Positions 3,612-50,247 of a DNA stretch of 64,000 nucleotides are shown here, piece after piece. Position 1 is the first letter of the stretch. Every line of letters begins with the position of its first letter. The position numbers and the translations under genes were made by a program. This DNA is from Deltaproteobacteria bacterium (lineage in GTDB: Bacteria > Myxococcota_A > Polyangia > Nannocystales > Nannocystaceae). The notes beneath the pieces were generated by a model. The model ran no database searches. It was not told where the DNA came from and worked only from the letters and a program-made list of their open reading frames with translations. The stretch lies in contig JADJEE010000012.1 of NCBI GenBank assembly GCA_016709225.1, positions 2,371,630 through 2,435,629 on the forward strand, in the 5' to 3' direction.

Positions 3612-3718
3612 GGTGGCGGATCGAACGACACTGCACCGCGGCCCTGACACGACAACCGTCCCTGCCCGCCCTTGCACCAAGCCGTGAGGCTCGAATCGAC
3701 GACGACGGGGGCGGCGGA

Positions 3719-4306
3719 TCACGCCACCGACGGTGCGCTCGCGGTGCCCGAGCCGAGGCCACGCCCGGGGTGCACGGCGATCGCATCCCAGCACGCACGC
3801 TCGGCCTGCGCGACCACCTCGTCGTCGAGCACGAGTCGGCCCTCGGTGTGCGCGCGCATCATGCCCACGAAGGCGCCGAACACGAGCTCCATCAGCAACG
3901 TTGCGTCGAGCGGCTTCACGAGGCCCTGCGACTGCGCGAGCCCGAGCATGCTGCGCGCGAAGTCCTTCAGGTTGCGATCGAGCGCCACGCTCTCGTCGTC
4001 GAGATACGAGGCGTGGTTGTGGGTCTCGATGAACATGAACGCGTCGGGGTCGTCGCGCGCGAACGCGATGATCTCGAGCCACATCACGCGGAATTGTTCG
4101 CGCGCGCCGACGCCCTGCGGGAAGGCCTTGAACACGCGCTGCATCACCACCGACTTCCACTTGCGGTAGAGCTCGTTGACCAGCGCCTCCTTGCTCGGGA
4201 AGTAGTGATAGATCGTGCCGGCCGCGACCTCGGCACGCTCGGCGATGTGCGGCATGGCGGTGCCATGGAAGCCGCGCTCCACGAAGCACGCGAGCGCGGC
4301 GGCCAT
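3719..4306 (-). CDS. TetR-family transcriptional regulator
   Basis: N-terminal HTH (AALACFVERGFHGTAMPHIAERAEVAAGTIYHYFPSKEAL) plus a C-terminal ligand-binding domain. Track ORF 3719..4432 begins 42 codons earlier, but that stretch uses AT-rich codons (att, aaa, ttg, tca, ggt) atypical for this genome, so I start at ATG 4306. Divergent from the lipase-like gene. Confidence 0.8.
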   Translation of the reverse strand: MAAALACFVERGFHGTAMPHIAERAEVAAGTIYHYFPSKEALVNELYRKWKSVVMQRVFKAFPQGVGAREQFRVMWLEIIAFARDDPDAFMFIETHNHASYLDDESVALDRNLKDFARSMLGLAQSQGLVKPLDATLLMELVFGAFVGMMRAHTEGRLVLDDEVVAQAERACWDAIAVHPGRGLGSGTASAPSVA

Positions 4307-4375
4307 GATCGACTCGCGTCGGTCCGGCCGGGCTGGCGGTCGGCCCCGTCTTGGCTTGCCCTCCAAAATACCGAA

Positions 4376-4482
4376 TGAATGTTCGAACAATTCCGGGCGC
4401 TTTGCCAGCTCCCCGTGAATTTCCCTTGCCACGTGGGCTTCCCGGTGCTTCCCTACGCCTCAGATTTTTCGAACGAACATTC
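4376..4482. promoter_or_regulatory. Putative TetR operator pair in the divergent TetR/lipase intergenic region
   Basis: Perfect 10-bp palindrome TGTTCGAACA at 4380-4389. The 9-mer GAATGTTCG at 4376-4384 recurs in inverted orientation at 4474-4482 (…TTCGAACGAACATTC…). The region 4330-4500 is conspicuously AT-richer than the flanking coding DNA. A GGAG SD lies 8 nt before the lipase ATG at 4504. Confidence 0.35.
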
Positions 4483-4503
4483 AATCAAGAACTCTGGAGC
4501 ACC

Positions 4504-5547
4504 ATGACGACGCGATCCCTCCCCGCCCTGATGGGCCTGGCCCTGACCCTCACCTCCGTCACCGCCTGCGACCTCGATCTGCCGCCCGGCGACATCACGC
4601 AGCCGCAGTACTGGGGTGACCTCTTCCTCGCCAAGTACGCCGACGAGCTGGTGCTGAACGAGCTCGAGCCCGGTCCCACTCCGCTCGAGCAGCCGCGCGT
4701 GGTGCTGCTCATCACCGGCGTCACGATCCCCGCGGCGTGGTTCGAGCCGATGATCGCACGGCTCGAGCGCGACGGCTTCGTGCCCGTGGTCTACGAGCCG
4801 CCCGAGCTGCTGAGCGGTGACCTCTTCGAGAACTCCGAGCGGCTCGCCGATGTCATCGACCAGGTCCGCGCCGAGCACGGCGTCGACACCATCGACATCC
4901 TCGCCGAGTGCACCGGTGGTCTCATCGCGCGTCACTACGTGCAATCGCTCGGCGGCGCGCCCAAGGTCTCGCGACTCGTCACCTTCATCTCACCGCAGCA
5001 CGGCCTGCCCAAGGCTCCGTGGGCGCAGGACATCGTCGGCTGGCCCGCGCTCGACGACCTCACCCCCGGCAGCGAGTTCCTCTCGGCCGTCAACGACGCG
5101 CCGCTACCCGAGGGCCTGCCGATCACGTCGATCTACACCTGCACCGACGAGTACATCCAACCCTACGAAACCTCGATCATCCCCGGCGCCCGCAACATCG
5201 GCCTGTGCGACGGCTTCGTCGGCCACTTCCAGTTCTTCTACGACCCCGCGATCTACCTCGTCATGCACGGCGCGCTCGTCGAGCCCCTCCCCGGCGACCC
5301 CGCACCGGGCAGTGACGACGACGGTGGTGAGGCCGACGACGGTGAGGCCGACGACGGTGAGGCCGACGGTGGTGAGGCCGACGACGGTGGTGAGGCCGAT
5401 CCCGACGACGACGGTGATGATCCGGACGCGGACGCCCCCGGCGAGACGGCGCAGGGATGCAGCGTCGCCCCGCGCACGGCTGCTACGCCGACATGGCTCG
5501 CGGGCCTCGCGATCGGACTGCGTCGCCGACGTCGCATCCGCGTTTGA
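4504..5547 (+). CDS. Secreted lipase/esterase-like alpha/beta-hydrolase lipoprotein with acidic repeat linker and MYXO-CTERM anchor
   Basis: Lipobox LTLTSVTAC. Lipase-like fold pattern, with a nucleophile elbow that reads A-E-C-T-G (Cys in the Ser position). C-terminal (DDGGEAD)n repeat, then GCSVAPRTAATPTWLAGLAIGLRRRRR, a MYXO-CTERM signature. Confidence 0.85.
   Translation: MTTRSLPALMGLALTLTSVTACDLDLPPGDITQPQYWGDLFLAKYADELVLNELEPGPTPLEQPRVVLLITGVTIPAAWFEPMIARLERDGFVPVVYEPPELLSGDLFENSERLADVIDQVRAEHGVDTIDILAECTGGLIARHYVQSLGGAPKVSRLVTFISPQHGLPKAPWAQDIVGWPALDDLTPGSEFLSAVNDAPLPEGLPITSIYTCTDEYIQPYETSIIPGARNIGLCDGFVGHFQFFYDPAIYLVMHGALVEPLPGDPAPGSDDDGGEADDGEADDGEADGGEADDGGEADPDDDGDDPDADAPGETAQGCSVAPRTAATPTWLAGLAIGLRRRRRIRV
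5325..5402 (+). repeat. Tandem 15/18-bp repeat (gacgacggt(ggt)gaggcc) x5, encoding (DDG(G)EA)n
   Basis: Seen directly in the nucleotide sequence 5325-5402. In frame inside the lipase-like gene. Confidence 0.8.
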
Positions 5548-6056: not shown

Positions 6057-7757
6057 TCAATCGAAGCGGCTGCCGATGCGCAGGGTCCAGGACCCCAGCA
6101 CGCCGGTGTTGCCGGCGACCGCATCGACCACGCGCAGGGTCCACTCGCCGTTGACCGACTCGTCGCCCGAGAAGCCCACCGGCGCGGCGTGGAAGCGGAA
6201 CAGATCGGCCTGGTCCTGTGCCACGAGCACCTCGTTGCCCGCGGGATTGGTGAGGGTGACGCGGAGGTCCTGCGGGTTGGCGTGGTCGATCTGCAGGTCG
6301 ATCTCGACGTCCATGTCGACGGTCGCGAGGCCGTAGACGAGCAGCGAGCGCGACAGCCCCTGCGCGTCGCCGTCGGGGATCGCGACGTCGAGTGAGGTCT
6401 CGAAGCTGCCGTCGGCGAAGTTGCCGACCATCCACGCCGGCAGGCACAGGCCCTCGTCGCCGCGGGTGAGTCCGGCGCACATCAGACCCTGACCGAGGTC
6501 GCACGGGGCCGATGCACTGCACTCGGTCTGCTCACCGAAGCCCGCGAGCAGGGTGCAGCGGCCCACGTTCGAGGCCTCGGAGCTGCCGACGCAGGTGCCC
6601 TCGGCACAGTCCGCGTTCGAGCTGCAATCCTGGCCCTGCGAGCCGACGCCGGCGCTGCAGCGCTCGATCTCGCCGTCGCTGATCACGGCGACGCGCTCGG
6701 CAGCGTCGAGCGGGAAGTAGGCGCCGACCGAGGTGTCGCCGGCGCCGAACTCGTAGACCACGTACGCGCGCGCGCTGGTGCGGTCCCACAGCTCGGTGCG
6801 GTTGATCTCGCCCTCGTCGGCGCGGGAGAACGCGTCGTCGACATCGGTCACGTCGGTGTGGGCCGAGCTGCGTACTGCCTCGACGACCTGCGCGCGCTGC
6901 AGCTCGCTCAGGCCAGCGGGCGATTGCAGCCGCACGCGCGGGCCGCTGACGACGTCGTGGGAGCTGCGCAGGTCGTGATACTGGTCCCCGAACACGCACT
7001 GCACGGCGAACGGCGACAGCTCGTCGAAGCATGCTGGGCCCATCTCCTGCGCGAAGGCCTCGAAGCCCGCCGCACAGAAGGCCGCCGGCATCGGCGCCTC
7101 GCACAGGCGATCGAACACCGGCCCGAGCGCCTCGCCATCGGTGCAGATCGCGAGCGCCTCGGCGGGGGTGAGATCGGGGCTCTCGGGATCGGCGGCCGAG
7201 TCGGCGACCTGCGCGTTCATGCAGGCGAGGATGTTGTTGGCGACGGTCTCGTCACAGCCGGCGGGCGCCGGGGGCAGCGGCGCGCAGTCACCGTTCTCGC
7301 AGGTCGACGACAGGCGATAGGCCCCGCGACCCCGCGCGTCGTGGGTGCCGACCACCACGAGGTACTCGCCGGCAGCGAGCGTGAGGCCGGTGATGCGGGA
7401 CTGTCGACCCCAGCCCGCGTCGTCGTCGAAGGCGATCGCGGTGTCGCCGAAGGCCTCGCCCTGGCGGGGGCCGAACACGAACAGCGTGGTGTCGAGCGCC
7501 TTCGCGGTGCCCTGTCGCGTGATCTCGATGCGCACGCGTGCGCCCTCGCGGACCGAGAGGTGATAGCCGTGGAACTCGAGGTCCTCGGTGAAGCGACCGG
7601 TGCGGGCGGCCTCGAGCTCGAGCGTGCCGAGGTCCTCGACGTGATCGATGGCGTCGCCTTTGCCATCGCCCAGCTCGGGGATCACGGCGTCGCTGCGATC
7701 GTCGGCGCTGCAGGCAAACAGGGAAACGGCGGCGAGTGCGGTGATGGAGGCGCGCAT
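6057..7757 (-). CDS. Secreted lipoprotein with N-terminal pre-peptidase C-terminal (PPC)-like domain, Cys-rich central region and C-terminal proprotein-convertase P-domain; no recognisable subtilase catalytic motifs
   Basis: Starts at M93 of track ORF 6057..8033 (MRASITALAAVSLFACSADD, lipobox). PPC-like GYHLSVREGARVRIEITRQG…LFVFGP. C-terminal P-domain pattern …DVAIPDGDAQGLSRSLLV…VDMDVEIDLQIDHANPQDLRVTLTNPAGNEVLV…WTLRVVD. No D-T-G, H-G-T or G-T-S-M-A blocks seen. Confidence 0.8.
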   Translation of the reverse strand: MRASITALAAVSLFACSADDRSDAVIPELGDGKGDAIDHVEDLGTLELEAARTGRFTEDLEFHGYHLSVREGARVRIEITRQGTAKALDTTLFVFGPRQGEAFGDTAIAFDDDAGWGRQSRITGLTLAAGEYLVVVGTHDARGRGAYRLSSTCENGDCAPLPPAPAGCDETVANNILACMNAQVADSAADPESPDLTPAEALAICTDGEALGPVFDRLCEAPMPAAFCAAGFEAFAQEMGPACFDELSPFAVQCVFGDQYHDLRSSHDVVSGPRVRLQSPAGLSELQRAQVVEAVRSSAHTDVTDVDDAFSRADEGEINRTELWDRTSARAYVVYEFGAGDTSVGAYFPLDAAERVAVISDGEIERCSAGVGSQGQDCSSNADCAEGTCVGSSEASNVGRCTLLAGFGEQTECSASAPCDLGQGLMCAGLTRGDEGLCLPAWMVGNFADGSFETSLDVAIPDGDAQGLSRSLLVYGLATVDMDVEIDLQIDHANPQDLRVTLTNPAGNEVLVAQDQADLFRFHAAPVGFSGDESVNGEWTLRVVDAVAGNTGVLGSWTLRIGSRFD

Positions 7758-8008
7758 GTCGAGCTCGACCGGCCGCTGTGCAACCTCGGCGCCGCGGTCT
7801 GTCACGGACCCGCACGCGGGATCTCGGGGGCTTTCGCTGGACGCGTGACTCCGACGTGACCCACGCGGGCCGGCCCGGCCGGCCGTGGCCACGAGAGTCG
7901 CCACCCCACCCGAGCGGCCGCCAGGGGCCCGCCCGAGGCCGTCGCGCACATGGGCGGCGCTGCCACGGATCGATTTGGCCGCGGGTTGCACGTGCAGGTC
8001 GAGACCCC

Positions 8009-8557
8009 ATGACACGCGCCACGCATGTTCCATCGTTGCTGATCCTCACCGCGCTCGCGGGCGCATGCGCCTTCGAGTCCACCGCAACCGCGCATCGCGT
8101 GCCGGTGCCGGTGTTGGTCGGGCCAGTCGAGCAGATCGGCGGCGCACCGCGTCCGAGCAGCGCCGACGACGGCCCGCAATTCGACATCAAGGTCGATCGC
8201 ACGGTGACCGCCTCGAGCAGCTCGCAGACCAGCGGCAACGTCACCGTCACCACCACCACCGCGACCGCCTCCACCGCCGGTGCCGGCCTGGTCGACGCCC
8301 GCGTGCGACTGGCCGCCAACGGCGCCAAGAACCGCCTGGTCCGCGTCGACCAGCTGCGCGTGAACTCGTACAGCGGGTTCTTCTACTCGGCGGCGTGGAT
8401 CAGCAGCCGCGTGCGCATCAAGGGCCACGTCGGCCGCGATGTCGTGCTGCCGGATGCGCCCGCGCTCGCGCCGGGAATCGAATCGCCGCCGGGTGACACC
8501 ACGAACTCGAACGCGGCTGCAACGACGACACCCGCTGCGAACTCCAACCTGCGCTGA
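8009..8557 (+). CDS. Small lipoprotein (first of three consecutive small lipoprotein genes)
   Basis: Starts at M78 of track ORF 7778..8557: MTRATHVPSLLILTALAGACAFEST (lipobox). 182 aa, T/S-rich. The C-terminal SAAWISSRVRIKGHVG block resembles a block in the next gene. Confidence 0.65.
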   Translation: MTRATHVPSLLILTALAGACAFESTATAHRVPVPVLVGPVEQIGGAPRPSSADDGPQFDIKVDRTVTASSSSQTSGNVTVTTTTATASTAGAGLVDARVRLAANGAKNRLVRVDQLRVNSYSGFFYSAAWISSRVRIKGHVGRDVVLPDAPALAPGIESPPGDTTNSNAAATTTPAANSNLR

Positions 8558-8574
8558 CACCAAGGCCCCGGACC

Positions 8575-9090
8575 ATGACCCGCCGCATCTGTGCTCTCAC
8601 GTCGATCTCCTGCGTCGTCCTCGCGCTCCTCGATGGCTGCGCCGGAGGACGCTCCAACCTCCGCTTCGACGACACGCGCTACCCCGTGTCGCTGTCGCCG
8701 ACGGTGCTCGGCTCCGACGGCGTCGTGTTGTTGCCCGCACGCCGCGAGGTCGTCGGCAAGCTCGAGATCGAGACCAAGGTCTACGGCCTGCTGTGGGCAG
8801 CGGTGCCGCTGACGCCCAACAAAGATCTCTCGACACAGGTCAACGATCAGATCGAGCGCGCCGGCGGTCAGGCGGTCGTGAACCTGCGCGTCACCAGCCG
8901 GCAGTGCGGCCTCAACAGCGCGTGGGTGCTGAGCACGGTGCCGCTGTGGCCGGGGTGCAGCAAGGTCTTCGTGCAAGGCGACATCATCCGCGAGCGCGCG
9001 CCCGAGGCCGTGGTCGAGATCGAAGCGCCGCCCAGCGAACCCGCGGCCAGCGAACCGATCGCGCACGCCCACCCCATGACCCTGCCGTGA
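8575..9090 (+). CDS. Small lipoprotein
   Basis: MTRRICALTSISCVVLALLDGCAGG lipobox. 171 aa. …NSAWVLSTVPLWPGCSKVFVQGDII. 17 bp after the previous gene. Confidence 0.7.
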   Translation: MTRRICALTSISCVVLALLDGCAGGRSNLRFDDTRYPVSLSPTVLGSDGVVLLPARREVVGKLEIETKVYGLLWAAVPLTPNKDLSTQVNDQIERAGGQAVVNLRVTSRQCGLNSAWVLSTVPLWPGCSKVFVQGDIIRERAPEAVVEIEAPPSEPAASEPIAHAHPMTLP

Positions 9091-9110
9091 ACTCCGCGAG
9101 GAACTCCATC

Positions 9111-9491
9111 ATGAAGACGTTCGCATCTCTGCTCGCCACCTCGACCCTCATGCTCGCGTGCAAGCTGGCGCCACCGGCCCCGCCGTACCTCAGCACCGAG
9201 GAACTCGCCGTGGTCGTCGTGCGCCCCAGCCAGGACATGGCGATCCGCATCGCGCAGTACTGCGAGCCGGTCGCCGCGGTGACGGCCTTCGGCGACAACC
9301 ACCTGCGCCAGAACGCGCACACCCGCGGCGCCAACCTCGTCGAGGTGCTGTACGACGCCGGTGGCAGCACCGCGGTGCTACACAGCTGCCCGCTGGGCTT
9401 CGACGCCGGCGAGGGCACCTTCGAGAGCAACGACGCGGCCGCGCGCGGGTCCTCCTCGAGCGTGACCACCCAGACGGTGACGTTGCACTGA
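9111..9491 (+). CDS. Small lipoprotein
   Basis: Last 126 codons of track ORF 8439..9491: MKTFASLLATSTLMLACKLAPP (lipobox). The remainder of that ORF is R-rich junk overlapping the previous genes. Confidence 0.65.
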   Translation: MKTFASLLATSTLMLACKLAPPAPPYLSTEELAVVVVRPSQDMAIRIAQYCEPVAAVTAFGDNHLRQNAHTRGANLVEVLYDAGGSTAVLHSCPLGFDAGEGTFESNDAAARGSSSSVTTQTVTLH

Positions 9492-9582
9492 AAAGCGCTC
9501 CGCGCTCGGACGTTGGCGCGCACCCGGAGCCCGCATCGGGCCACGCACACCCGCGGCGATCATCGCAGATGAATGCGAGAGG

Positions 9583-10884
9583 ATGCCGCCGGCTCTCGAT
9601 CCCGACGCGCTCGCACTGCCGGTGCTGCAGGACCCTGCCTGCGCCGCCTACGTGCGCGAGCTGTTGCGCACGCGCTGGACCGACGGCCACGACGAAGACG
9701 CCGTGGCACGCGTGCAGGCCCGCATCGACGCACGCACGATCGTCTTCGTCGCCGTCCACCACGGCAACTTCCCCAGCCTCGAGTTCCTGGCGCCGGCGCT
9801 GCGCGAGCGCGGGCACACGACGCTGGCGATCTATCTGCAGGGCGACGCACACGGCGAGGGCTTCGACCACACCGAGTGCTGCGGTGGTTCGCTCTCGCGG
9901 CTGGCGGCGCTGCTGCGGTCACTGCCCGACGGCACCGCGATCTATCTGCAGGCCCATGCCCGCTGGGTGTGGCTCGGGCAGCTGGTCGCCGCGGTCGCAC
10001 CGCGACTGCGGCTGGTGCAGGAGATCTGGGACTGGATGGATCAGTTCGCGCCGGCCGCACGCGCGCAGGACTTCGTCGACGACGGCGTGTTCACCCACGC
10101 CGAGCTCGCGCTGATGCGTGGCGCCGAGGCGTGGGTGCGTGACCACGCGTATGCCGTCGTGCACAAGCACGGTGGGCGCGAGCAGCCGCCGTGGCCCACC
10201 GGCGCCGCGGCGCGCGAGTGTCGGATCATGCCGTGCCCGCCGCGCGCGTGGTCGCGGCCGCCGCTGCGCCGCGAGCCCGGCCCGTGGCGGATCGTACACG
10301 TGGGACAGATCAAGTCGCAGCACGCACCGGTGCGGGCGTTCGGCGACCTGCAGCTCGCATCGCTGTTCCAGCGCTGGACCCGTCAGGGCCTCTACGTGAG
10401 CGCGTACCCCGGGGTCGCACCGGCCGCCGATGCACTCGTCGACTACGAGGCGCTCGCGCGCCGCGATCGGGCCTTCGCGCTGCATCGACACCGCTCGATC
10501 GGTGAGCTGGTCGGCGCACTGCACGGGGCCCACGACTACGGCCTGCTGCTGTATCCGTTCCCGCGCGAGCTCGCGGTCGGTCGTGCGCACCTGCGTACGG
10601 CGCTCGCGAGCAAGCTGTTCACCTACGTCGCCGCCGGCCTGCCGGTGTTGGTGAGTCCGGAGCTGGCGTACATGGCCGAGCTGGTCGAGCACCACGGCAT
10701 CGGCCTGGTCGTCGAGGCGCGCGATCACGATCGGTTGCGCGAGCGCCTCGACGTCGTCGACTACCCGGCACTGCAGCGCGCAGTCCGGGCCGCGCAGTCC
10801 GAGTTCCACATCGAGCGCTTCGTCCCCGCGCTGGTCGAGCTGCTCACCGCCTGCGGACCCGTCGCCGCCGAAACACCACCATGA
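9583..10884 (+). CDS. Glycosyltransferase, GT-B fold (GT1/GT4-like C-terminal domain)
   Basis: ATG at 9583 with a GAGAGG SD. C-terminal half has the Glycos_transf_1 pattern …HVGQI…RAFALHRHRSIGELVGALHGAHDYGLLLYPF…ASKLFTYVAAGLPVLVS…GIGLVVEARDHDRL. Its stop overlaps the next start (ATGA at 10881). Confidence 0.8.
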   Translation: MPPALDPDALALPVLQDPACAAYVRELLRTRWTDGHDEDAVARVQARIDARTIVFVAVHHGNFPSLEFLAPALRERGHTTLAIYLQGDAHGEGFDHTECCGGSLSRLAALLRSLPDGTAIYLQAHARWVWLGQLVAAVAPRLRLVQEIWDWMDQFAPAARAQDFVDDGVFTHAELALMRGAEAWVRDHAYAVVHKHGGREQPPWPTGAAARECRIMPCPPRAWSRPPLRREPGPWRIVHVGQIKSQHAPVRAFGDLQLASLFQRWTRQGLYVSAYPGVAPAADALVDYEALARRDRAFALHRHRSIGELVGALHGAHDYGLLLYPFPRELAVGRAHLRTALASKLFTYVAAGLPVLVSPELAYMAELVEHHGIGLVVEARDHDRLRERLDVVDYPALQRAVRAAQSEFHIERFVPALVELLTACGPVAAETPP

Positions 10885-12062
10885 CCGCTCGTCGACCGCA
10901 ACGCATCGCGATCGCGCTGCCCCGCGACAATGACTTCTACCGCGCCCTCGCTGCGCAGATGTGCCGCGGCTTCGAGGCGTGCGGCCTCGAGGCCACCAGC
11001 GTGCTGCGTCTGCTCGCCGCGGACGACATGCGGGACTTCTGCGCCAGCGTGCGCCCCGACGTGTTGCTCGAGATGAACCGCTCGCGCGCGATGGCGGAGT
11101 TCGTGCCCGACGACGTCGTGCACCTGACGTGGGTCGTCGACCTCGGCGGTCGCGCGGTCGATGACTTCGCGGGCTCGGCGTACACGTATCTCTTCAGCGA
11201 CGCGTGGCTGCCCCACTTCACGCTCGACGCGCCGCATCGTTGGCTCGGCCCCGGCGCGTGCCCGCAGGACTACCCGCAACGCGCCCACACCTCGAACCAA
11301 CGCCTGGCGTTCCTCGGCCACATCCCGAATCCGTGGACCCCGGAGGAGCTCGCGCGCGACGTCACCGGCGGGGCTGGCGTGTGCGACTTCGGCAGTCTGC
11401 TGCCGGCGATCGAGCGGCTGCTGCGACCCGACGATCCGCACCAAGCGCTGCTCGGCGTCGAGGACTTCCTACGTCGCATCGACGGGGCCTGCTATGCGAT
11501 CGGCGGCCACCCCTTGGTGATCGACGACGCGCTCGCCTACGACATCACGTGCCGCGTGGTGCGGCACCTCAACCGCACCGAGCTGGCCGACGCGGCGCTC
11601 GCGATGGCATCGCGGCGCGGCCTGCAGGGCGACGCGCTCGCACGGTGGCTCGGAATCTGGGGCACGCCCAACTGGTCGCGGTGGCCTCGCTTCGCGCCGC
11701 ACTACCACGGCTGGCTCGCCACGCCGGCGCAGATGTCCGAGGTCTACACCGGCACGGAGATCGTGCTGCACGAGGGCACCGGCGTGCACTTTCGATCGAT
11801 GGATGCGATGAGCACCGGCGCGCTGGTGTCGTTCCGCGAGGGTGATCTCGGCAGCCATGTCGACGCGATCCACCTCGGCTTCGAGCCGCACGTGCACTTC
11901 GTGCCGTTCCACCTGCACGAGATCGACGACGCCCTCGCGCCGTACCTCGCCGACCCCGTGCGCGCGCAGGCCATGCGCGACGCCGCGGCCGCGCGCATCC
12001 GCGACGCCCACACCTGGCGCCACCGCGCGCAGGGAATCCTCGACGACCTCGCGAGCCTGTGA
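10881..12062 (+). CDS. CgeB-like / GT1-related glycosyltransferase-family protein
   Basis: 393 aa. C-terminal …TGTEIVLHEGTGVHFRSMDAMSTGALVSFREGDLGSHVDAIHLGFEPHVHFVPFHLHEIDDALAPYLADPVRAQAMRDAAAARIRDAHTWRHRAQGIL resembles spore-maturation CgeB / Glyco_trans_1_2 family C-termini. Translationally coupled to the genes on either side. Confidence 0.7.
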   Translation: MTARRPQRIAIALPRDNDFYRALAAQMCRGFEACGLEATSVLRLLAADDMRDFCASVRPDVLLEMNRSRAMAEFVPDDVVHLTWVVDLGGRAVDDFAGSAYTYLFSDAWLPHFTLDAPHRWLGPGACPQDYPQRAHTSNQRLAFLGHIPNPWTPEELARDVTGGAGVCDFGSLLPAIERLLRPDDPHQALLGVEDFLRRIDGACYAIGGHPLVIDDALAYDITCRVVRHLNRTELADAALAMASRRGLQGDALARWLGIWGTPNWSRWPRFAPHYHGWLATPAQMSEVYTGTEIVLHEGTGVHFRSMDAMSTGALVSFREGDLGSHVDAIHLGFEPHVHFVPFHLHEIDDALAPYLADPVRAQAMRDAAAARIRDAHTWRHRAQGILDDLASL

Positions 12063-12066
12063 CCCG

Positions 12067-14646
12067 ATGAACGCACCCGTAGCCACCGACACCCCGGTCG
12101 AGCCGACCGCCGCCGACGCGCGCTGGTCCGAGGCGCGGATCCTCGAGGCACTGCTCGACGCCGGGCTACCGCTGCCCGAACTCGACGCGGTGGTGCTGGC
12201 GATCCCGCAGCCCGCCGCCGCGATCGTGAGCCTGCGACGACTCGCACCGAACCTGCGCGCGATCGTGGTGCTGTCGTCGACGGCCAGCGATCTGCCGCTC
12301 GTCGGCGCGACCTCGCTGGTCATCGGTGACGCCGACACCCAACGCGACGACGGCCTCGCACTGCTCGAGACGCTGCTGCGTGCAGGCGTGCGTGCCGCTC
12401 GGGTCGCGTGGATCGACGACCCCGATGCCGGCGATGACGACGTTGCGACCGCGTTGGTGCGTGCGCTCGGTTGGCGTGGTCTGGAGCCGTGGCTCGACAC
12501 GATCGCGCCGGAGGACGCTCGTGCGCACGCGGTGCTCGGCGCATGGGCCGAGCGACTCGAGCTCGAGCAGAGCTCCGTGGCGGCGCTGCGACTGTGGCTG
12601 CTGCTCTACGCGCACACGCGCTCGGGCGCGATCGCAACCCGCGTCGCCATCGCCTACGACAAGCTCGGCGCACCCCAGCACGCTGCGCGATGGCTGCCGC
12701 GTGCCGATGCACCGCCCGCAGCGATCGACGAGCTGGTCGCCCAGGCACGCGCCGACGCGGCCGTGCAGGCCCAGGCCGAGCAGGCCCAGCGCGACGCCAA
12801 CCTCGCGGCCCTGCGCGAGCGCTGGCCGGCAGCCGCGGAGGCCCTCGCTGCCGCGTCGTGCAGCGGTCTGGACATCCTGTGCACCGATGCCCTGCCGTGG
12901 CGCTGGTCCAGCGCGGCCGGGGTCCGGCGCGATCCGTATCCGTTGGTCGTGAGCATCGACGACGACGGCATGCGCGAGCGCGTTCGCGTGCACGCGCATC
13001 CCGAGTCGCCGGCCCGACTGCGCGCGCAGATGACCGCGCGCGTCGGCGCGGCGGGACGGCACGCGATGGTCGGCCTCGCCGACTGGGCCGCGGTCTTGAA
13101 CCTGGTGGGCAACCGCGTCACCACCACCCTGCCGGGCTGGACGCAGCAGGTCTACGGCTTCGCCGACGACACCGCAGTCCTGCGACGACTGCTGGGCGCG
13201 ATCGATCTGCGCGCCGTGCTCGCGTCGGGCGTGTTCGCGGCGGTGTTCGTGGGCGATGACGCCACTTCGCAGGCCCTGCGATTCTTCGCGAGCGAGCGAC
13301 TGCGACCGGTACCGAGGATTCGCGTGGGCTGTGATGCCATCGATCCCGCGCTCGCGCGACTCGATCGCGAGCGCATCGAGGGTTGGCACCGAACGACTGC
13401 GGCGCTCGCCGACCACCACCGCGACACCGCCGCCCGCGCGCTCGCGAAGCTCGACGCCGGCGCACCGCTGCGCGTGTGGCTGTGGTCGTCGATCCACACC
13501 ACGGTACTGCGCCACGTCGGCGCGGGTCTGATGGCCGGCTTCGACGCGCTCGGCCACACCGCGCAGCTGCAGATCGAGCACGACCCGCGCGACAACTACG
13601 ACCTCCCCGCGGTCGCCGATGCATTGGCGGCGTTCGATGCCGACCTCGCGATCCAGCTCGATCACATCCGACCCGAGTACGGCCCGCTGCTGGCGCCCGG
13701 TCTCCCGGTCGCCGCGTGGGTGCTCGACGAGCTGCCGCCGCTGTCGGATCCTGCGCTCGTCGCCAAGCTCGGCGCGCTCGACCTCACCTTCGCGTGGAGC
13801 GCTCCACTGGCGCGTGCCTACGCCGAGCGGGGCCATCCCCACAGCGCCAAGCTGCTGTTCGCGGTCGACCCTGCCACCTACCACGCCCGCGATGTGCTGC
13901 CCGCCGAGGACGCGATCGCCTACGCGACCCATCTGACGCTGCCGTTCGAGCCACGCTGGGCCCCTGGCATCTACGCCGAGCTCGAGCGCGTGCTGCAGAC
14001 GATGCCACAGCTGCCGTCGGGCCTGGTCGAGCTCGCACCCGTGATCGAGCGGCTGCTCGCGCGCACCGGCGTGATCGTGCCGGAGCCGCTCGCGAGCACG
14101 TTTGCCTACGACGCCCTGCTGGTCGCGCGCCACGTCGAGCGCACCCGCGTGGCCGACGAGATCCTCGCGGCGGGTCTGCCCCTGCGACTCTACGGCCGCG
14201 GGTGGAATCGCATCGAGCGCTTCGCAGCCCACGCCCACGGCGAGATCGCGGCCGGGCCCGACCTGCGCGCGATGTACCAGCGCCACAAGGTCGTGCTGCA
14301 CATCAACACCCGCTGCAACCTGCATCCCCGCGTGCTCGAGGCCGCGGCCAGCGGCGGCTTCGTGCTCGCGCGCTCCGACGGCGACTTCGACTGGGCCGAT
14401 GGCGGGGTCCACGACGCGCTCGAGATCGGCCGCGAGCTGTGCCTGTTCGACGACCCCGCCGACATGCTGGCCAAGCTGCGCCGGGCCCTCGTCGACGAGC
14501 CGTGGCGACGCGAGTTCGCGCGGGCGGCCCACGACCGCGTGCACGCCGATCACACCTACGTGCAGCGGGCGCGTACGATCGTCGACGCGCTGCACGCCCG
14601 CCTGCGCGCCGTGGCCGGCGATCCGACCACGCACGACCCCGCGTAG
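12067..14646 (+). CDS. Large (859 aa) protein with C-terminal CgeB-like glycosyltransferase domain and ~600-aa N-terminal region of unknown function
   Basis: Starts at M76 of track ORF 11842..14646 (ATG 12067, 5 bp after the previous stop). C-terminus LRLYGRGWNRIERFAAHAHGEIAAGPDLRAMYQRHKVVLHINTRCNLHPRVLEAAASGGFVLARSDGDFDWADGGVHDALEIGRELCLFDDPADMLAKLRRALVDEPWRREFARAAHDRVHADHTYVQRARTIVDAL is a strong CgeB/Glyco_trans_1_2 signature. Confidence 0.8.
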   Translation: MNAPVATDTPVEPTAADARWSEARILEALLDAGLPLPELDAVVLAIPQPAAAIVSLRRLAPNLRAIVVLSSTASDLPLVGATSLVIGDADTQRDDGLALLETLLRAGVRAARVAWIDDPDAGDDDVATALVRALGWRGLEPWLDTIAPEDARAHAVLGAWAERLELEQSSVAALRLWLLLYAHTRSGAIATRVAIAYDKLGAPQHAARWLPRADAPPAAIDELVAQARADAAVQAQAEQAQRDANLAALRERWPAAAEALAAASCSGLDILCTDALPWRWSSAAGVRRDPYPLVVSIDDDGMRERVRVHAHPESPARLRAQMTARVGAAGRHAMVGLADWAAVLNLVGNRVTTTLPGWTQQVYGFADDTAVLRRLLGAIDLRAVLASGVFAAVFVGDDATSQALRFFASERLRPVPRIRVGCDAIDPALARLDRERIEGWHRTTAALADHHRDTAARALAKLDAGAPLRVWLWSSIHTTVLRHVGAGLMAGFDALGHTAQLQIEHDPRDNYDLPAVADALAAFDADLAIQLDHIRPEYGPLLAPGLPVAAWVLDELPPLSDPALVAKLGALDLTFAWSAPLARAYAERGHPHSAKLLFAVDPATYHARDVLPAEDAIAYATHLTLPFEPRWAPGIYAELERVLQTMPQLPSGLVELAPVIERLLARTGVIVPEPLASTFAYDALLVARHVERTRVADEILAAGLPLRLYGRGWNRIERFAAHAHGEIAAGPDLRAMYQRHKVVLHINTRCNLHPRVLEAAASGGFVLARSDGDFDWADGGVHDALEIGRELCLFDDPADMLAKLRRALVDEPWRREFARAAHDRVHADHTYVQRARTIVDALHARLRAVAGDPTTHDPA

Positions 14647-14660
14647 TATCGTCACCCGCG

Positions 14661-15728
14661 ATGCTCTTCCCGCGTCGCGCCTCGCTCGGTGTGTCCCTCG
14701 TCGTGCTCGCGTGCGGTTCGCCCTCGGGCGGTGACACCGGCACCAGCTCCGGCGACGGCAGCACCTCCTCGACCGGCAGCGACGCCAGCGACAGCGGCAC
14801 CTCCGACCCGGGCACCAGCGGCAGCTCCGGTGCCGCCGATGGCTCGAGCAGCACCGGCACCACCGGCGATCCCGACGCGTGCTGGACCGACCTCGCGTTC
14901 GGCGAGCAAGAGGTCTTCTACGACGGCTTCGCCGACGGCAGTGAGGGGCTCGCGTTCGGTGCCGACGGCAAGCTCTACGCGACCACGATCGCGGGCACCG
15001 ACGGCACGCTGTGGCAGCTCGACGCCGATGGCAACGCCGTCGACTTCGCCCACGTGCCCTACGCCCTCGGACTCGCGCCGCGACCCGAGGGCGGCTTCGT
15101 GGTCGCGTCCATCGGGGTCAACATGCAGCCCGACGGCGCTGTGTATCGCGTCGACGCCGACGGCACCGCCACACAGTGGGCGACCGGCATCGACAGCCCC
15201 AACTTCGTCACGCTCACGCCCGACGGCGGCGCGTTGGTATCCGACGATTTCGACACCCGCATCTTCCACGTCGCCGCCGACGGCACCGTCACCGTCGCGC
15301 TCGAGATGATCGAGTCACCCAACGGCATGGCCTACAGCCCCGACGGCAGCCACCTCTACGTCGCGACCACCTTCGCCGACGATCCACCGATCACACGCTT
15401 CGAGGTCGACGCGCAGGGGCTGCCCGTGGCCGGCACCGGGGTCGAGATCCTCCGCATCGGCCCGGTCTCGACGCCCGACGGCATCGCGGTCGACGAGGCC
15501 AACATGGTCTACGTCGCCGCCAACTTGAAGGGCGAGATCTGGCGGGTCGACGGTGGGTCGACCGAGGTCGTGCCCGGCGAACTGGTGAGCGATGGCCTCG
15601 GCTCGCCGGCGAGCCTCGCGTTCGGCCACGGCGCCGGCTTCGACCCGTGTTCGATCTACGTCACGCAGCTGTTCGGCGCGAGGATCCTGCGGGTCGGCAT
15701 CGGCACACGCGGCCTGCCGCTGCCGTAG
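14661..15728 (+). CDS. SMP-30/gluconolactonase/LRE-like beta-propeller lipoprotein
   Basis: Last 355 codons of track ORF 13383..15728: MLFPRRASLGVSLVVLACGSPSGG (lipobox), S/T/G-rich linker, then repeated …DGS.LYVA…/…PDGIAVDEANMVYVA…/…PNGMAYSPDGSHLYVA motifs typical of the SGL family. Confidence 0.8.
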   Translation: MLFPRRASLGVSLVVLACGSPSGGDTGTSSGDGSTSSTGSDASDSGTSDPGTSGSSGAADGSSSTGTTGDPDACWTDLAFGEQEVFYDGFADGSEGLAFGADGKLYATTIAGTDGTLWQLDADGNAVDFAHVPYALGLAPRPEGGFVVASIGVNMQPDGAVYRVDADGTATQWATGIDSPNFVTLTPDGGALVSDDFDTRIFHVAADGTVTVALEMIESPNGMAYSPDGSHLYVATTFADDPPITRFEVDAQGLPVAGTGVEILRIGPVSTPDGIAVDEANMVYVAANLKGEIWRVDGGSTEVVPGELVSDGLGSPASLAFGHGAGFDPCSIYVTQLFGARILRVGIGTRGLPLP

Positions 15729-15772
15729 CGCGGGAGTCCCTGGACGCCTCACCGCGCGTCGCGTCGCGTGCG

Positions 15773-18613
15773 TCACCGCAGGTCGTCGTGCTCGCGCAGC
15801 CACGCCTGCACGGCGGCCAGATCGAGCGGCGTCTTCTCGGGATGCTCGCGGTAGAGCGCGAGGGCTTCGCGCGCCAGCGACAGCGCTCGTGCTCGCTCGC
15901 GTGGCTGCGTCCAGAGCACACGAGCGAGGGCCCAACGCGTGGCCGCGAGCTCGTCGCTCGGCAAGGGCTCGCTGGCTTGCAACGCCAGCGCGCGCTCGAG
16001 CACAGGGCGAGCCGCGGCCACCTGACCCGCGCGCAGCTGCGCCTCGCCCAGCAGCGTCAAGAACGACGCGAGCTTGATGTGCTGCGGGCCGAACTTGGAC
16101 TCGTAGATCGCGATCGCCCGCGAGGCGTGCTCGCGGGCGTCATCGAGACGCGCGAGCTCGATCTCGGTCGCCGCGAGGTACGACAGCGCGCGCGCGAGGT
16201 CGGGGTGGTTGGGCCCCAGCGCGGCCTCACGCAGCGCACACACGCGGAGATAGCCCTCGCGCGCGGCATCGAGGTTGCCCAGCGACATCTCGTCGCTCGC
16301 GAGGTTGCCGAGCGCCATCGTCGTGATCGGATGCTCGGGCCCGTATACCCGCGACGCGAGCTCGTAGGCCCGCTGATCGAGATCGCGGGCACTCGCATGC
16401 TCCCCGCGCGCATCCTCGGTGACACCCAGCGACAGCAGCGACGACACCAACTCCGGGTGATCGGGCGGCAACGATCGCTCGCGGATCAACAGCGCACGCT
16501 CGATCAGCACGCGGGCCTCGTCGTAACGACCCACCTGCACCAACGCCGTGCCGAGGTTGTCGATCGCGAAGGCGGTGTCGGGGTGGTCGGCACCGAGCGC
16601 TGCTTGGCTGTCGTCCGCGAGTCGCCGCATGATGTCGAGCGCGATCGTGGTGTCGCCCAGCTGCAATCGGATCGCCGCGAGCAACGTGTCGGCGCGAGAT
16701 GCCTCGGGACTGCCGACGATGGTCGTCTCGCGGGAGCTCTGCGCCGCCAGCTCGGCATACGCGTGCGCGAGCGGCAGCTCGCCCATCTCCATCAGCGAGA
16801 GCGCCAGATGCGAGAACAGGCGCGTGCGGAGATACGAATCCTGATCGCCGGCTCGCATGCGATGCAGCTGCGCCCGCTCGGCCCACGCGAGCCCGTCCTC
16901 GAAGCGCCGCATCCGCGCGCCGATGAGTGCGAGCAGGCTGGCCGCCGCATGCGCGGCCTCCTGCTCGAGGCCGGCACCGGCGGCGCGGTAGTACGCGTCG
17001 AGCATCATGGCCTCGGCGCGCGGCAGCTGCCCGACCTCGCCAAGCTGCAACGACAGCCGCATGCGGCTCTCGACCACCAGCGGTACCCAGGCGAGTCGAT
17101 CGGCCTGCGCGACCGCGGACTCGAGCGACTCGAGCATCTCGTCGATGCGGCCGGTCAGCCGCGTAGCGGCGGCGCTGGCGAGGTGTTCGCGAATCGACGC
17201 GATCTCGTCGTCGGCACCTGCAGGCTGCGCAGGCTGTCGTAGCAGCGCATCGTCGTCGAGGCAGGTGGCGACGCTGGGCAGCGAGAGCGCGGCACCGGCC
17301 GCCAGCCGTAGCATCGCGGTATCGGCAGTCGGCAGGCGGTGCACCAGGCCCGCGAGCACGAGCTGGCGGTTCGCGAGGCAGGCATCGGCGCGCGCGACGA
17401 GCTCGCGATCCCAATCACGCGCGAGCTCGGCATGACCACACACCTCCGCGCGCGCGGTCGCGAGTTCCGCGGCGTAGGCATCGAGCCGCGCTTCGACCCG
17501 CTCGTCGGTGGCGGCGGCGTAGCCCGCCCCGGTCGCCAGCAGGCCCTCGCGCACCGCCGTGCGCACGCCGTCGTCGACGCCCGGCCACACCGCGACGATC
17601 GACTCGCCCGCCTCGGCGCAGCCGGCCGCACGGCGTCGTTCGTCGAGTTCCTGCCAGCCCCACCGCATCGACGCCACCGCGACCACGACCCCGAGCGCAC
17701 CGAGGGCCATGCGACGGCGCCTGCGCGTACGCAGCTGGGCGAGCGCGTCGAGCAGCGCATCCATCGACGCAAAGCGACGGGTGGGGTCGGCCTCGAGCCC
17801 ACGCGCGAGCACCCGACGCAGCGCGGGCTCGGGCTGCGCGACCATGGGGTGCTCGCCGCGATCGGGCTCCTGCGTGACGCGGCTGTTGGGTCGCACGCCG
17901 CACAGCGCCTCCCAGGCGCTCACGCAGAAGGCGTACTGATCGGAGCGGGCATCGGCGGTGGCCCCCGCGAACAGCTCGGGCGCCATGTACCCCGGCGTGC
18001 CCGCGATGCGAGCACCAGTTGCGTTGGACTCGGCCGGTGTCGGCGCGCTGCCGTTCGATTCGTACCCATCGACGCCGCTGGCGAGCGCGAGGCCGAAGTC
18101 CAGCACGCGCACGCGCCCATCGTCGCCGAGCATCGCGTTGTCGAGCTTGAAGTCGCGATGCACGATCCCGACCGCGTGCGCGGCCGCGAGCGCACGACCG
18201 GCCTGCACGAGCAGCTGCAGCACCGCGCGGGGGCGCCGATGCGCCGCGCGCAACCATGTCCGCAGCGTCTGCCCCTGCACCTGCTCCATCGCCACGAACA
18301 GCTGCCCCTCGTGCGTGCCGACCTCGAAGACCGCGACGACATTGGGGTGGTTCAGCTGCGCCAGTGCCCGCGCCTCGCTACGCAGCTGCTCGGGGTCAGC
18401 CGCGTGCGCGTGCAACAGCTTGATCGCGACCCCCCGGTCCAACAGCGGATCGAACGCCGCGTAGACGCTGCCCATCCCACCACGCCCGAGCGTGGCGACG
18501 ATGCGATAGCGACCGATGCACTGCAGCGGCGTGCTCGGATCGAACAGCCGCTGCTGTACGATCGCCTGCGTCGCTGCGGTGTCGATGCCCGGGGCCTGCT
18601 CGCGCGTGTCCAT
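15773..18613 (-). CDS. Ser/Thr protein kinase (Hanks-type) with long C-terminal TPR array
   Basis: Starts at M292 of track ORF 15773..19486 (MDTREQAPG…). The upstream 291 codons are R/G-rich junk. Kinase motifs GRGGMGSVY, AIK, HRDFKLDNAML, DFGLA, GTPGYMAPE; then a TM-like segment and ~600 aa of TPR-like repeats (…ALGNLASDEMSLGNLDAA…). Confidence 0.85.
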   Translation of the reverse strand: MDTREQAPGIDTAATQAIVQQRLFDPSTPLQCIGRYRIVATLGRGGMGSVYAAFDPLLDRGVAIKLLHAHAADPEQLRSEARALAQLNHPNVVAVFEVGTHEGQLFVAMEQVQGQTLRTWLRAAHRRPRAVLQLLVQAGRALAAAHAVGIVHRDFKLDNAMLGDDGRVRVLDFGLALASGVDGYESNGSAPTPAESNATGARIAGTPGYMAPELFAGATADARSDQYAFCVSAWEALCGVRPNSRVTQEPDRGEHPMVAQPEPALRRVLARGLEADPTRRFASMDALLDALAQLRTRRRRRMALGALGVVVAVASMRWGWQELDERRRAAGCAEAGESIVAVWPGVDDGVRTAVREGLLATGAGYAAATDERVEARLDAYAAELATARAEVCGHAELARDWDRELVARADACLANRQLVLAGLVHRLPTADTAMLRLAAGAALSLPSVATCLDDDALLRQPAQPAGADDEIASIREHLASAAATRLTGRIDEMLESLESAVAQADRLAWVPLVVESRMRLSLQLGEVGQLPRAEAMMLDAYYRAAGAGLEQEAAHAAASLLALIGARMRRFEDGLAWAERAQLHRMRAGDQDSYLRTRLFSHLALSLMEMGELPLAHAYAELAAQSSRETTIVGSPEASRADTLLAAIRLQLGDTTIALDIMRRLADDSQAALGADHPDTAFAIDNLGTALVQVGRYDEARVLIERALLIRERSLPPDHPELVSSLLSLGVTEDARGEHASARDLDQRAYELASRVYGPEHPITTMALGNLASDEMSLGNLDAAREGYLRVCALREAALGPNHPDLARALSYLAATEIELARLDDAREHASRAIAIYESKFGPQHIKLASFLTLLGEAQLRAGQVAAARPVLERALALQASEPLPSDELAATRWALARVLWTQPRERARALSLAREALALYREHPEKTPLDLAAVQAWLREHDDLR

Positions 18614-28780: not shown

Positions 28781-28910
28781 TCGCGGGCGCTGACGCCACG
28801 TTGGGCGGTGGCCGCACGGGCGCGTGCCCGCGCGCATGCGTGGGTCGCCGCGTCGTCGCGCGGCACCGCGGTTGCACTCGCGGCCCACCTTGCCGAAGCT
28901 GCACCCGCCG

Positions 28911-50090: not shown

Positions 50091-50213
50091 CGCCGCCGCC
50101 CCTCCCAGAAGGACCCGAGGGCCCCCCATGAGAGGTACCCGGTTGCTCGCCCGGTGAGGGCGACGATATCGCCGCGTACGCAGGCCGGCGTAGGCGTTCA
50201 CGCGCATCGCCCT

Positions 50214-50247
50214 CGCGCACGCGCACGCGCACGCGCACGCGCGCGCG
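50214..50247. repeat. Simple repeat (GCGCAC)4(GC)n, 34-nt perfectly alternating pyrimidine/purine tract (Z-DNA-prone)
   Basis: cgcgcacgcgcacgcgcacgcgcacgcgcgcgcg, read directly. Lies in the intergenic region upstream of the second GH25 gene and of the divergent small secreted protein gene. Confidence 0.8.

What the first reader, a model, noticed from the sequence alone, without database searches (positions are those of the whole stretch)
9583..14646. Operon of three CgeB/GT1-like glycosyltransferase genes with no sugar-nucleotide genes: candidate uncharacterised surface-glycosylation module
Three consecutive genes (433, 393 and 859 aa) each end in a GT-B/CgeB-like C-terminal domain. They are translationally coupled (ATGA overlap at 10881; 5-bp gap at 12062/12067). 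The third carries a ~600-aa N-terminal region with no recognisable domain. The possible pseudo-receiver start ILEALLDAGLPLPELDAVVLAIP…IVVLSS is speculative. The trio sits directly after three small lipoprotein genes (8009-9491) and before an SMP-30-like lipoprotein and a Ser/Thr kinase. There are no flanking nucleotide-sugar biosynthesis, flippase or polymerase genes, so this does not look like a standard EPS or O-antigen locus. In Bacillus, CgeB-family proteins mature the spore surface; in a myxobacterium this could modify spore coat, lipoproteins or a fruiting-body matrix.
Basis: partly seen in the sequence, partly recalled or inferred. Interest (0 to 1): 0.6.

Follow-up and report, generated by a model that had tools for sequence, protein, structure and literature searches.

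The report
Conserved three-glycosyltransferase module, sugar genes unlinked
Three adjacent genes in this myxobacterial genome encode soluble sugar-transferring enzymes that recur as a set in related bacteria, usually beside genes for an unusual seven-carbon sugar, so they probably attach that sugar to a still unknown, most likely protein, target.

Summary
The three genes are real and tightly packed: 9583-10884, 10881-12062 and 12067-14646, with an ATGA overlap and a 4-nt gap. Two are CgeB-like (Pfam PF13524). The first belongs to a different GT-B family, closest to streptococcal Gtf3.

A confident AlphaFold model of the 859-aa protein (pLDDT 92.5) shows a complete GT4-like GT-B fold from about residue 466. 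The true N-terminal extension is therefore about 460 aa, not 600. It holds a small four-stranded alpha/beta domain (not a receiver), a TPR-like helical region and a region weakly related to the N-terminal domain of Maf flagellin glycosyltransferases.

The Gtf3-like gene sits beside at least one CgeB-like gene in all 11 distinct loci examined. In 8 of those 11, the pair lies next to a GmhA / heptose-kinase / GmhB / nucleotidyltransferase / dehydratase / E1-TPP operon. This window and two other loci lack that operon. No sugar, flippase or polymerase gene was found anywhere in the 64 kb.

Best reading: a soluble, cytoplasmic module that transfers a heptose-derived sugar, probably onto a protein. 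The link to the neighbouring lipoproteins or to spores is unsupported. This is an uncharacterised variant of known enzyme kinds, of moderate interest.

The parts
9583..10884 (+). GT1, 433 aa: soluble Gtf3-like GT-B glycosyltransferase, annotated 'hypothetical protein' in GenBank (MBK6922627.1)
   Evidence: ORF and gene call. The precomputed Pfam hit is PF26337 Gtf3_C, weak here and unmarked in many orthologues. A 50-sequence family profile hits Gtf3 structures 9hu9 and 9htx at E 4.6e-5 over the motif H..SKL..YlaAGLPvlv, with H336, S343, K344, Y348, G352, L353 and P354 invariant. No TM segment or signal peptide.
10881..12062 (+). GT2, 393 aa: stand-alone CgeB-like (PF13524) glycosyltransferase, translationally coupled to GT1 through an ATGA overlap
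   Evidence: PF13524 at 58.7 bits. It is 30% identical to the C-lobe of GT3. Across the whole length the GT2 family aligns with GT3 residues ~466-859. H297, H303, R305 and G313 are invariant, and Asp308 stands where GT3 has Glu758.
12067..14646 (+). GT3, 859 aa: large multidomain CgeB-like glycosyltransferase (MBK6922629.1, 'glycosyltransferase family 1 protein')
   Evidence: PF13524 at 86.3 bits over residues 702-839. AF2 model with a 58-sequence alignment: pLDDT 92.5, pTM 0.88. About 45 cluster representatives share the full architecture.
12124..12471 (+).
   Evidence: AF2 secondary structure shows E41-45, E65-70, E81-85 and E113-117 with flanking helices. No Response_reg hit. It is poorly conserved (20-33% outside the closest relative) and missing from the L008 orthologue. 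Relatives carry a VGxxxG...LVVEPD motif that is degenerate here.
12514..12774 (+). GT3 residues 150-236: TPR-like helical repeat region
12784..13461 (+). GT3 residues 240-465: region weakly related to the N-terminal domain of Maf flagellin glycosyltransferases (NLxxLxxxxPxLAxxL motif, beta-hairpins, four-stranded alpha/beta unit, long helix)
   Evidence: N245 is invariant in 58 family members. Pfam Maf_flag10_N matches 6 of 58 family members, best E 5.8e-6, but does not match the window protein itself. A profile of this region has a single PDB hit among 177,635 sequences, 5mu5 (Maf), at E 0.15 in two collinear stretches.
13462..14631 (+). GT3 residues 466-855: complete GT-B (GT4-like) catalytic module, including the PF13524 stretch 14170-14583
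14661..15728 (+). SGL/SMP-30-like probable lipoprotein, 355 aa, 14 nt downstream of GT3; probably co-transcribed but not a conserved partner
   Evidence: PF08450 at E 1e-20. Ser/Thr/Gly/Asp-rich linker at residues 18-70. Absent next to the module in every other locus.
8009..9491 (+). Three small probable lipoprotein genes (8009-8557, 8575-9090, 9111-9491) with no known domain; neighbours, not shown to be part of the module
   Evidence: Translations with signal-like N-termini and Cys. No Pfam family. Conserved only in the Nannocystaceae locus L005/L008, where three other genes lie in between.

Best explanation
The three genes encode a conserved, soluble, cytoplasmic glycosyltransferase module. 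The module probably builds a short glycan from a nucleotide-activated, heptose-derived sugar on a protein acceptor (Ser/Thr O-glycosylation).

GT3 is the likely initiating enzyme. Its GT4-like GT-B catalytic half is fused to a TPR-like region and a Maf-N-like region, which would recognise the acceptor, as the TPR domain does in FlmG and O-GlcNAc transferases. GT1 (Gtf3-like) and GT2 (short CgeB-like) would add further sugars.

In this lineage the sugar-synthesis operon has been separated from the transferases, so it should lie elsewhere in the genome.

Shown: the gene structure, the family assignments, the fold of GT3, the recurrence of the module and its linkage to heptose genes in relatives. 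Inferred: the identity of the donor in this organism, a protein as the acceptor, and the division of labour among the three enzymes.

For: (2) Module. A GT1 orthologue sits beside at least one CgeB-like gene in all 11 distinct loci examined. Seven of them carry the full large + short + Gtf3-like set.

(3) Donor. In 8 of 11 loci the module lies beside an operon of GmhA-like, heptose-7-P-kinase-like, GmhB-like, sugar-1-P nucleotidyltransferase, two SDR dehydratase/epimerase and E1 alpha/beta genes, with or without aminotransferases. The GT3 stretch 733-781, within the PF13524-matching part of the C-lobe, is 86-90% identical between the window and heptose-linked orthologues, against 43-45% overall.

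(5) All three proteins lack TM segments or signal peptides. No lipid-carrier transferase, flippase, polymerase or exporter accompanies the module in any locus.
Against: No acceptor gene is conserved next to the module.

Cultured myxobacteria have no flagella (general knowledge), so the flagellin analogy cannot hold here.

GT4-like enzymes also act on small molecules and lipids; the best structural matches include BshA, MshA and PimA.

The heptose operon is absent from this 64-kb window and from loci L008 and L019, so the donor in this organism is inferred. All NCBIfam hits to the sugar enzymes fall below the curated cut-offs.

The canonical first Glu of the GT4 EX7E motif is Cys750 in GT3.
Confidence: 0.42

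Rival explanations
1. The module makes a carbohydrate polymer or oligosaccharide (a surface or spore-associated glycan, an LPS-core-like decoration, or an intracellular polysaccharide such as mycobacterial methylmannose polysaccharide), not a protein-linked glycan.
Against: No initiating phosphoglycosyl transferase, flippase, polymerase, chain-length regulator or outer-membrane exporter appears in the window or in any of 11 loci. All three proteins are soluble. The TPR-like and Maf-N-like extension is not typical of polysaccharide transferases.
Confidence: 0.25
2. The module glycosylates a small molecule or lipid (a secondary metabolite, a thiol/osmolyte-type compound or a glycolipid) with an unusual amino or branched heptose-derived sugar.
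Against: No PKS, NRPS or other scaffold genes lie next to the module in any locus. The module occurs in many lineages with different neighbours. The window has no biosynthetic cluster around it.
Confidence: 0.15
3. One reading: the trio modifies the adjacent small lipoproteins (8009-9491), the SGL lipoprotein, or the spore coat or fruiting-body matrix of a myxobacterium.
For: The lipoprotein trio and the GT trio are neighbours here and in the Nannocystaceae locus L008. lipo182 and the SGL protein carry Ser/Thr-rich tracts. The SGL gene starts 14 nt after GT3. Cytoplasmic heptosylation before Sec export has a precedent in the autotransporter heptosyltransferases (PMC4358343, listed).
Against: The lipoproteins and SGL are absent beside the module in the 9 other distinct loci. 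In L008 three unrelated genes separate them, and flanking genes are also shared, so common descent explains the proximity. The transferases are cytoplasmic whereas lipoproteins are exported. No sporulation or developmental gene is nearby.
Confidence: 0.1

Closest known systems
CgeB of Bacillus subtilis (name-giving member of Pfam PF13524, Glyco_trans_1_2)
   Same: GT2 and the C-terminal part of GT3 match PF13524 well above the cut-off. CgeB is a soluble, putative GT-B protein O-glycosyltransferase proposed to act on Thr112 of the crust protein CgeA (PMC13577073).
   Different: CgeB is 317 aa, is thought to use a UDP-sugar, and is specific to endospores. GT3 is 859 aa with a 460-aa extension. 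The relatives here are linked to heptose genes. No cgeA-like gene or endospore context exists.
FlmG of Caulobacter crescentus, and O-GlcNAc-transferase-type enzymes (TPR + GT-B)
   Different: No pseudaminic-acid pathway is present, there is no flagellin in myxobacteria, and there are extra alpha/beta domains. Sequence relatedness to FlmG was not tested.
Maf (motility accessory factor) flagellin glycosyltransferases, structure 5mu5
   Same: The region around GT3 residues 240-465 shares the N-terminal NLxxLxxxxPxL motif and a VYxVEPD strand with the degenerate Rossmann-like N-terminal domain of Maf.
   Different: The catalytic MAF_flag10 domain (PF01973) is absent from GT3 and from all 58 relatives scanned. 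Catalysis here rests on a GT-B module instead. The similarity is weak.
Gtf3 / GtfC of streptococcal serine-rich-repeat adhesin glycosylation (PF26337; 3qkw, 3rhz, 4w6q, 9hu9)
   Same: The GT1 family shares the C-terminal motif (H..SKL..YLAAGLPV) at E 4.6e-5. Both are soluble enzymes of about 330-450 aa.
   Different: Only about 65 residues align. GT1 is about 100 aa longer. No serine-rich adhesin, GtfA/B or accessory Sec genes are present.
Bacterial autotransporter heptosyltransferases (TibC, Aah)
   Same: A precedent for cytoplasmic protein O-glycosylation with a nucleotide-heptose before export (PMC4358343).
   Different: It is a different enzyme family. No sequence or structural match was seen in any search, and no autotransporter gene is nearby.

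Membership tests
Pfam PF13524 Glyco_trans_1_2 (CgeB-like) | HMM score above the gathering cut-off of 25 bits | tested here: met
   GT2 scores 58.7 bits and GT3 86.3 bits. GT1 has no hit, so GT1 is not a member.
GT-B fold, GT4-like glycosyltransferases | Two Rossmann-like lobes with the active site in the cleft, and structural similarity to solved GT4 enzymes | tested here: met
GT-B fold, GT4-like glycosyltransferases | EX7E motif in the C-lobe | tested here: inconclusive
   The second Glu is present (E758, nearly invariant; it aligns with the VEAMAAG Glu of PimA). The position eight residues upstream is Cys750, not Glu. GT2 has Asp at the E758 position.
Gtf3/GtfC family (PF26337 Gtf3_C) | Significant match to the family model or to solved members | tested here: inconclusive
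   The precomputed hit is 'weak' for the window GT1 and unmarked for many orthologues. The family profile against the PDB gives Gtf3 at E 4.6e-5, but only over 65 residues. The single sequence gives E 0.07.
Maf flagellin glycosyltransferases | Central MAF_flag10 (PF01973) catalytic domain | tested here: not met
   No PF01973 hit in GT3 or in any of 58 family members.
Maf flagellin glycosyltransferases | Maf_flag10_N (PF20157) N-terminal domain | tested here: inconclusive
FlmG-type modular protein O-glycosyltransferase | N-terminal TPR acceptor-binding domain plus C-terminal GT-B domain | tested here: met
FlmG-type modular protein O-glycosylation | Binds and glycosylates a protein acceptor (flagellin) with a nonulosonic acid | not testable with these tools
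   No flagellin or nonulosonic-acid genes lie in the window. This needs biochemistry.
Wzx/Wzy- or ABC-dependent EPS / O-antigen / capsule locus | Initiating phosphoglycosyl transferase, flippase or ABC exporter, polymerase/co-polymerase and an outer-membrane export protein nearby | tested here: not met
   None was found among the genes called or scanned across the 64-kb window or in the related loci.
Nucleotide-heptose-linked glycosylation module (defined here by synteny) | GmhA / heptose kinase / GmhB / nucleotidyltransferase operon adjacent to the transferases | tested here: not met
   Present in 8 of 11 distinct loci but absent from this window: tblastn with all eight L009 sugar proteins found nothing. 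Whether the operon lies elsewhere in the genome could not be tested.
Response-regulator receiver (pseudo-receiver) domain | (beta-alpha)5 fold, Response_reg HMM match and the conserved Asp pocket | tested here: not met
   No PF00072 hit at E<=1. The model shows only four strands. The domain is absent in one orthologue.

The most novel reading that the evidence does not exclude
The trio would represent an uncharacterised and fairly widespread cytoplasmic protein O-glycosylation system. In it, a TPR/Maf-N/CgeB fusion enzyme starts a glycan made from a new heptose-derived sugar (6-deoxy, amino and possibly two-carbon-branched), and a Gtf3-like enzyme extends it. In flagellated lineages the system may decorate flagellin. 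In non-flagellated Nannocystaceae it would have been kept, detached from its sugar operon, and redirected to other targets such as Ser/Thr-rich exported lipoproteins.
Probability: 0.2. Interest if true: 0.65.

Novelty: new variant of a known kind. Interest (0 to 1): 0.4.

Why it matters
Each protein belongs to a broadly known enzyme class. GenBank already calls two of them glycosyltransferases, so the gene trio alone is not a surprise.

What the analysis adds is a recurrent, unstudied module. It combines a Gtf3-like enzyme with CgeB-like enzymes, one of which is fused to TPR-like and Maf-N-like domains. About 45 cluster representatives at 50% identity share that architecture. In most lineages the module is genetically tied to a nucleotide-heptose pathway that includes an E1-type thiamine enzyme and aminotransferases.

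If the module proves to be a protein glycosylation system, three things follow:
- It would add a new sugar and a new enzyme architecture to bacterial O-glycosylation.
- It would give the poorly understood CgeB and Maf-N domains a second experimental handle.
- It would raise the question of what a non-flagellated myxobacterium glycosylates with it.

Tried and rejected
- Word-indexed homologue searches for GT3 returned only five proteins, both with the single sequence and with a nine-sequence alignment. The second search was wasted. The exhaustive representative search was needed.
- The first AF2 run, on six sequences, was unusable (pLDDT 50.7).
- The afdb50 fold library was unavailable. I therefore obtained no UniProt names or organisms for structural relatives.
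- Promoter and terminator scans of 7600-16000 found nothing, so operon boundaries rest on spacing alone.
- Pseudo-receiver idea: rejected.
- Lipoproteins, SGL or the kinase as conserved partners: rejected. They are absent from other loci apart from one 31%-identical kinase paralogue in L014.
- A conserved fourth gene, such as the HTTM-like membrane protein of L012/L016: rejected. It is shared only between those two close relatives.
- Literature searches for heptose-containing flagellin glycans or for this enzyme combination found nothing relevant.
- Cluster look-ups did not give the taxonomy of the FliW-linked loci L010, L012 and L016.
Full report
**Observation**

The window is about 71% G+C throughout. 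ORFs of 433, 393 and 859 aa lie at 9583-10884, 10881-12062 and 12067-14646 on the + strand. Public gene calls on identical contigs give exactly these genes, and their codon-position GC is that of real genes: GC3 0.88-0.91 against GC2 about 0.5.

- GT1 and GT2 overlap by ATGA.
- GT2 and GT3 are separated by 4 nt, not 5.
- The next gene, an SGL/SMP-30 lipoprotein, starts 14 nt after GT3.
- Upstream lie three small proteins with signal-like N-termini and a Cys, and no known domain.
- Downstream on the other strand lies a Pkinase-TPR protein.

Exact-sequence look-up places the window in an uncultured 'Deltaproteobacteria bacterium' MAG (MBK6922624-30, 3.67-Mb contig). The same proteins also occur in a Nannocystaceae MAG. 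GenBank names GT3 'glycosyltransferase family 1 protein', GT2 'glycosyltransferase' and GT1 'hypothetical protein'.

**What the three proteins are**

GT2 and GT3 match Pfam PF13524 (Glyco_trans_1_2, the CgeB family) at 58.7 and 86.3 bits. They are paralogues: 30% identical over the C-lobe, and alignable over the whole of GT2 against GT3 residues ~466-859.

GT1 shows no detectable sequence similarity to them. It has only sub-threshold Glycos_transf_1 matches and a precomputed Gtf3_C (PF26337) assignment. A profile of 50 orthologues finds the solved streptococcal Gtf3/GtfC structures at E 4.6e-5. The match covers a C-terminal motif whose residues H336, S343, K344, Y348, G352, L353 and P354 are invariant in the family. 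None of the three has a signal peptide or a membrane segment.

**Structure of GT3**

With only six homologues the model was useless. The exhaustive search found 1,627 representatives at E<=1e-3 and 73 at E<=1e-30. About 45 of these share the whole 830-920-aa architecture.

A 58-sequence alignment gave a model with pLDDT 92.5 and pTM 0.88. Residues 466-855 form a complete GT-B fold:

- Foldseek: BshA at E 5.7e-8, then MshA, GlgM, PglA, SdgB, TarM and Gtf3.

So the 'unknown' part is about 460 aa, not 600. It consists of:

- A four-stranded alpha/beta domain (residues 20-135). It is poorly conserved, missing in one orthologue, and has no receiver-domain match.
- A region (residues 240-465) that begins with the family-invariant N245 in an NLxxLxxxxPxLAxxL motif.

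Pfam's Maf_flag10_N model matches 6 of 58 family members, though not the window protein. A profile of that region has exactly one hit in the whole PDB sequence set, the Maf structure 5mu5, at a weak E of 0.15 but in two collinear stretches. The Maf N-terminal domain is described as a degenerate four-stranded Rossmann-like domain of unknown function (PMC11339370). The catalytic MAF_flag10 domain is absent.

**Genomic context elsewhere**

I examined 11 distinct loci that carry a GT1 orthologue (the window, L005/L008, L007, L009, L010, L011, L012/13, L014/15, L016/17, L018 and L019).

- All 11 have a CgeB-like gene next to the GT1 orthologue.
- Seven carry the full large + short + Gtf3-like set.
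- In eight, the transferases lie beside (mostly diverging from) an operon of a GmhA-like isomerase, a heptose-7-phosphate-kinase-like PfkB protein, a GmhB-like phosphatase, a sugar-1-phosphate nucleotidyltransferase, two SDR dehydratase/epimerases and a pyruvate-dehydrogenase-E1-like alpha/beta pair.
- Some loci add two DegT aminotransferases or B12-radical-SAM enzymes.

This is a nucleotide-heptose pathway with downstream tailoring. The NCBIfam matches are all below the curated cut-offs, so the exact product is unknown.

The window, its Nannocystaceae relative L008, and L019 lack the operon next to the transferases. tblastn with the eight L009 sugar proteins finds nothing in the 64 kb. A Pfam survey of the rest of the window shows unrelated genes: CobW, a cis/trans fatty-acid isomerase, HisG, a MurA-like protein, Pal/CpoB-like proteins, two GH25 lysozymes and others.

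GT3 residues 733-781, within the PF13524-matching part of the C-lobe, are 86-90% identical between the window and orthologues from heptose-linked loci, against 43-45% overall. From this I infer the same donor, and I predict that the operon lies elsewhere in this genome.

No acceptor candidate is conserved. The three lipoproteins recur only in L008, separated from the trio by three unrelated genes and embedded in otherwise shared synteny. SGL and the kinase do not recur, and no fourth gene is shared. FliW and a sigma factor lie about 9 kb from the module in two relatives.

**Mechanism proposed**

The enzymes are soluble. No lipid-carrier, flippase, polymerase or export gene appears in any locus. 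The closest characterised families are protein-directed: CgeB with CgeA Thr112 (PMC13577073), Gtf3 with serine-rich adhesins, and Maf and FlmG with flagellin (PMC7591256). GT3 has a TPR-plus-GT-B layout.

Together these features favour cytoplasmic protein O-glycosylation. In this scheme GT3 recognises the acceptor and initiates, and GT1 and GT2 extend, using a nucleotide-activated heptose derivative. I give this 0.42.

- A polymer or oligosaccharide product: 0.25.
- A small-molecule or lipid acceptor: 0.15.
It has only adjacency and Ser/Thr-rich tracts in its favour.

**Comparison and novelty**

GT2 and GT3 are members of PF13524, and GT3 is a GT4-like GT-B enzyme. The first Glu of the EX7E motif is replaced by Cys750. 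GT1 is Gtf3-like but not securely a member of that family. GT3 is not a Maf, because the catalytic domain is absent. It is not in an EPS or O-antigen locus, and it has no receiver domain.

The combination appears unstudied: a Gtf3-like enzyme, CgeB-like enzymes and a TPR/Maf-N fusion, usually tied to a heptose pathway. The literature searches found no description of it. I rate it a new variant of a known kind, with interest 0.4.

Noticed in passing
L011:38-9905 (also L014:1-9802, L009:1-7499, L007:628-8110): A conserved 8-10-gene sugar operon joins a GmhA/heptose-kinase/GmhB/nucleotidyltransferase core to two SDR enzymes, a pyruvate-dehydrogenase-E1-like alpha/beta TPP enzyme and two DegT aminotransferases. 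This may be a route to a new amino or two-carbon-branched higher-carbon sugar. All NCBIfam hits are below cut-off.
   Followed up: partly
L012:20460-21368 and L016:20031-21374; L010:14028-17908: FliW and a sigma-70-family factor lie about 9 kb from the transferase module in two relatives, and ParA/MinD-like plus HDOD genes lie near it in a third. This hints that some carriers are flagellated and that flagellin could be a target there.
   Followed up: partly
window 46705-48285 (-) and about 48450-50900 (-): Two tandem paralogous genes each encode a GH25 lysozyme domain fused to a Golvesin_C domain.
   Followed up: no
window 28824-31298 (+): A full-length fatty-acid cis/trans isomerase (Pfam CTI, 855 bits), an enzyme best known from Pseudomonas and Vibrio (my recollection), is present in this Nannocystaceae-like genome.
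   Followed up: no
L008:9600-10004: In the Nannocystaceae STL-MYX3 orthologue, GT3 lacks about the first 125 residues. Two tiny ORFs of 40 and 69 aa occupy that space, which suggests decay or a frameshift of the N-terminal alpha/beta domain.
   Followed up: no
L019:14469-18539: In this locus the module has no heptose genes. Instead it is flanked by an RMNT_CmcI-type methyltransferase, a class-I methyltransferase and a PhyH dioxygenase, which suggests a methylated glycan in that lineage.
   Followed up: no
L010:11343-13370 and L018:6371-8380, 3372-4535: B12-binding radical-SAM enzymes, and in L018 a SPASM radical-SAM enzyme, are inserted among the transferase genes.
   Followed up: no
window 14712-14870 (SGL residues 18-70) and 8192-8287 (lipo182 residues 62-93): Long Ser/Thr/Gly/Asp-rich low-complexity linkers follow the lipobox Cys of the SGL protein and lie within lipo182. 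They are plausible O-glycosylation sites, but such linkers are common.
   Followed up: partly
L014:17355-19757 (-) and window 15773-18613 (-): A Pkinase-TPR protein 31% identical to the window's kinase lies just downstream of the trio in L014. It may be coincidence, given how many such kinases myxobacteria carry.
   Followed up: no
window 57483-60689 (+): A 1068-aa protein has PD40 beta-propeller repeats and a hydrazine-synthase-alpha-like middle domain.
   Followed up: no
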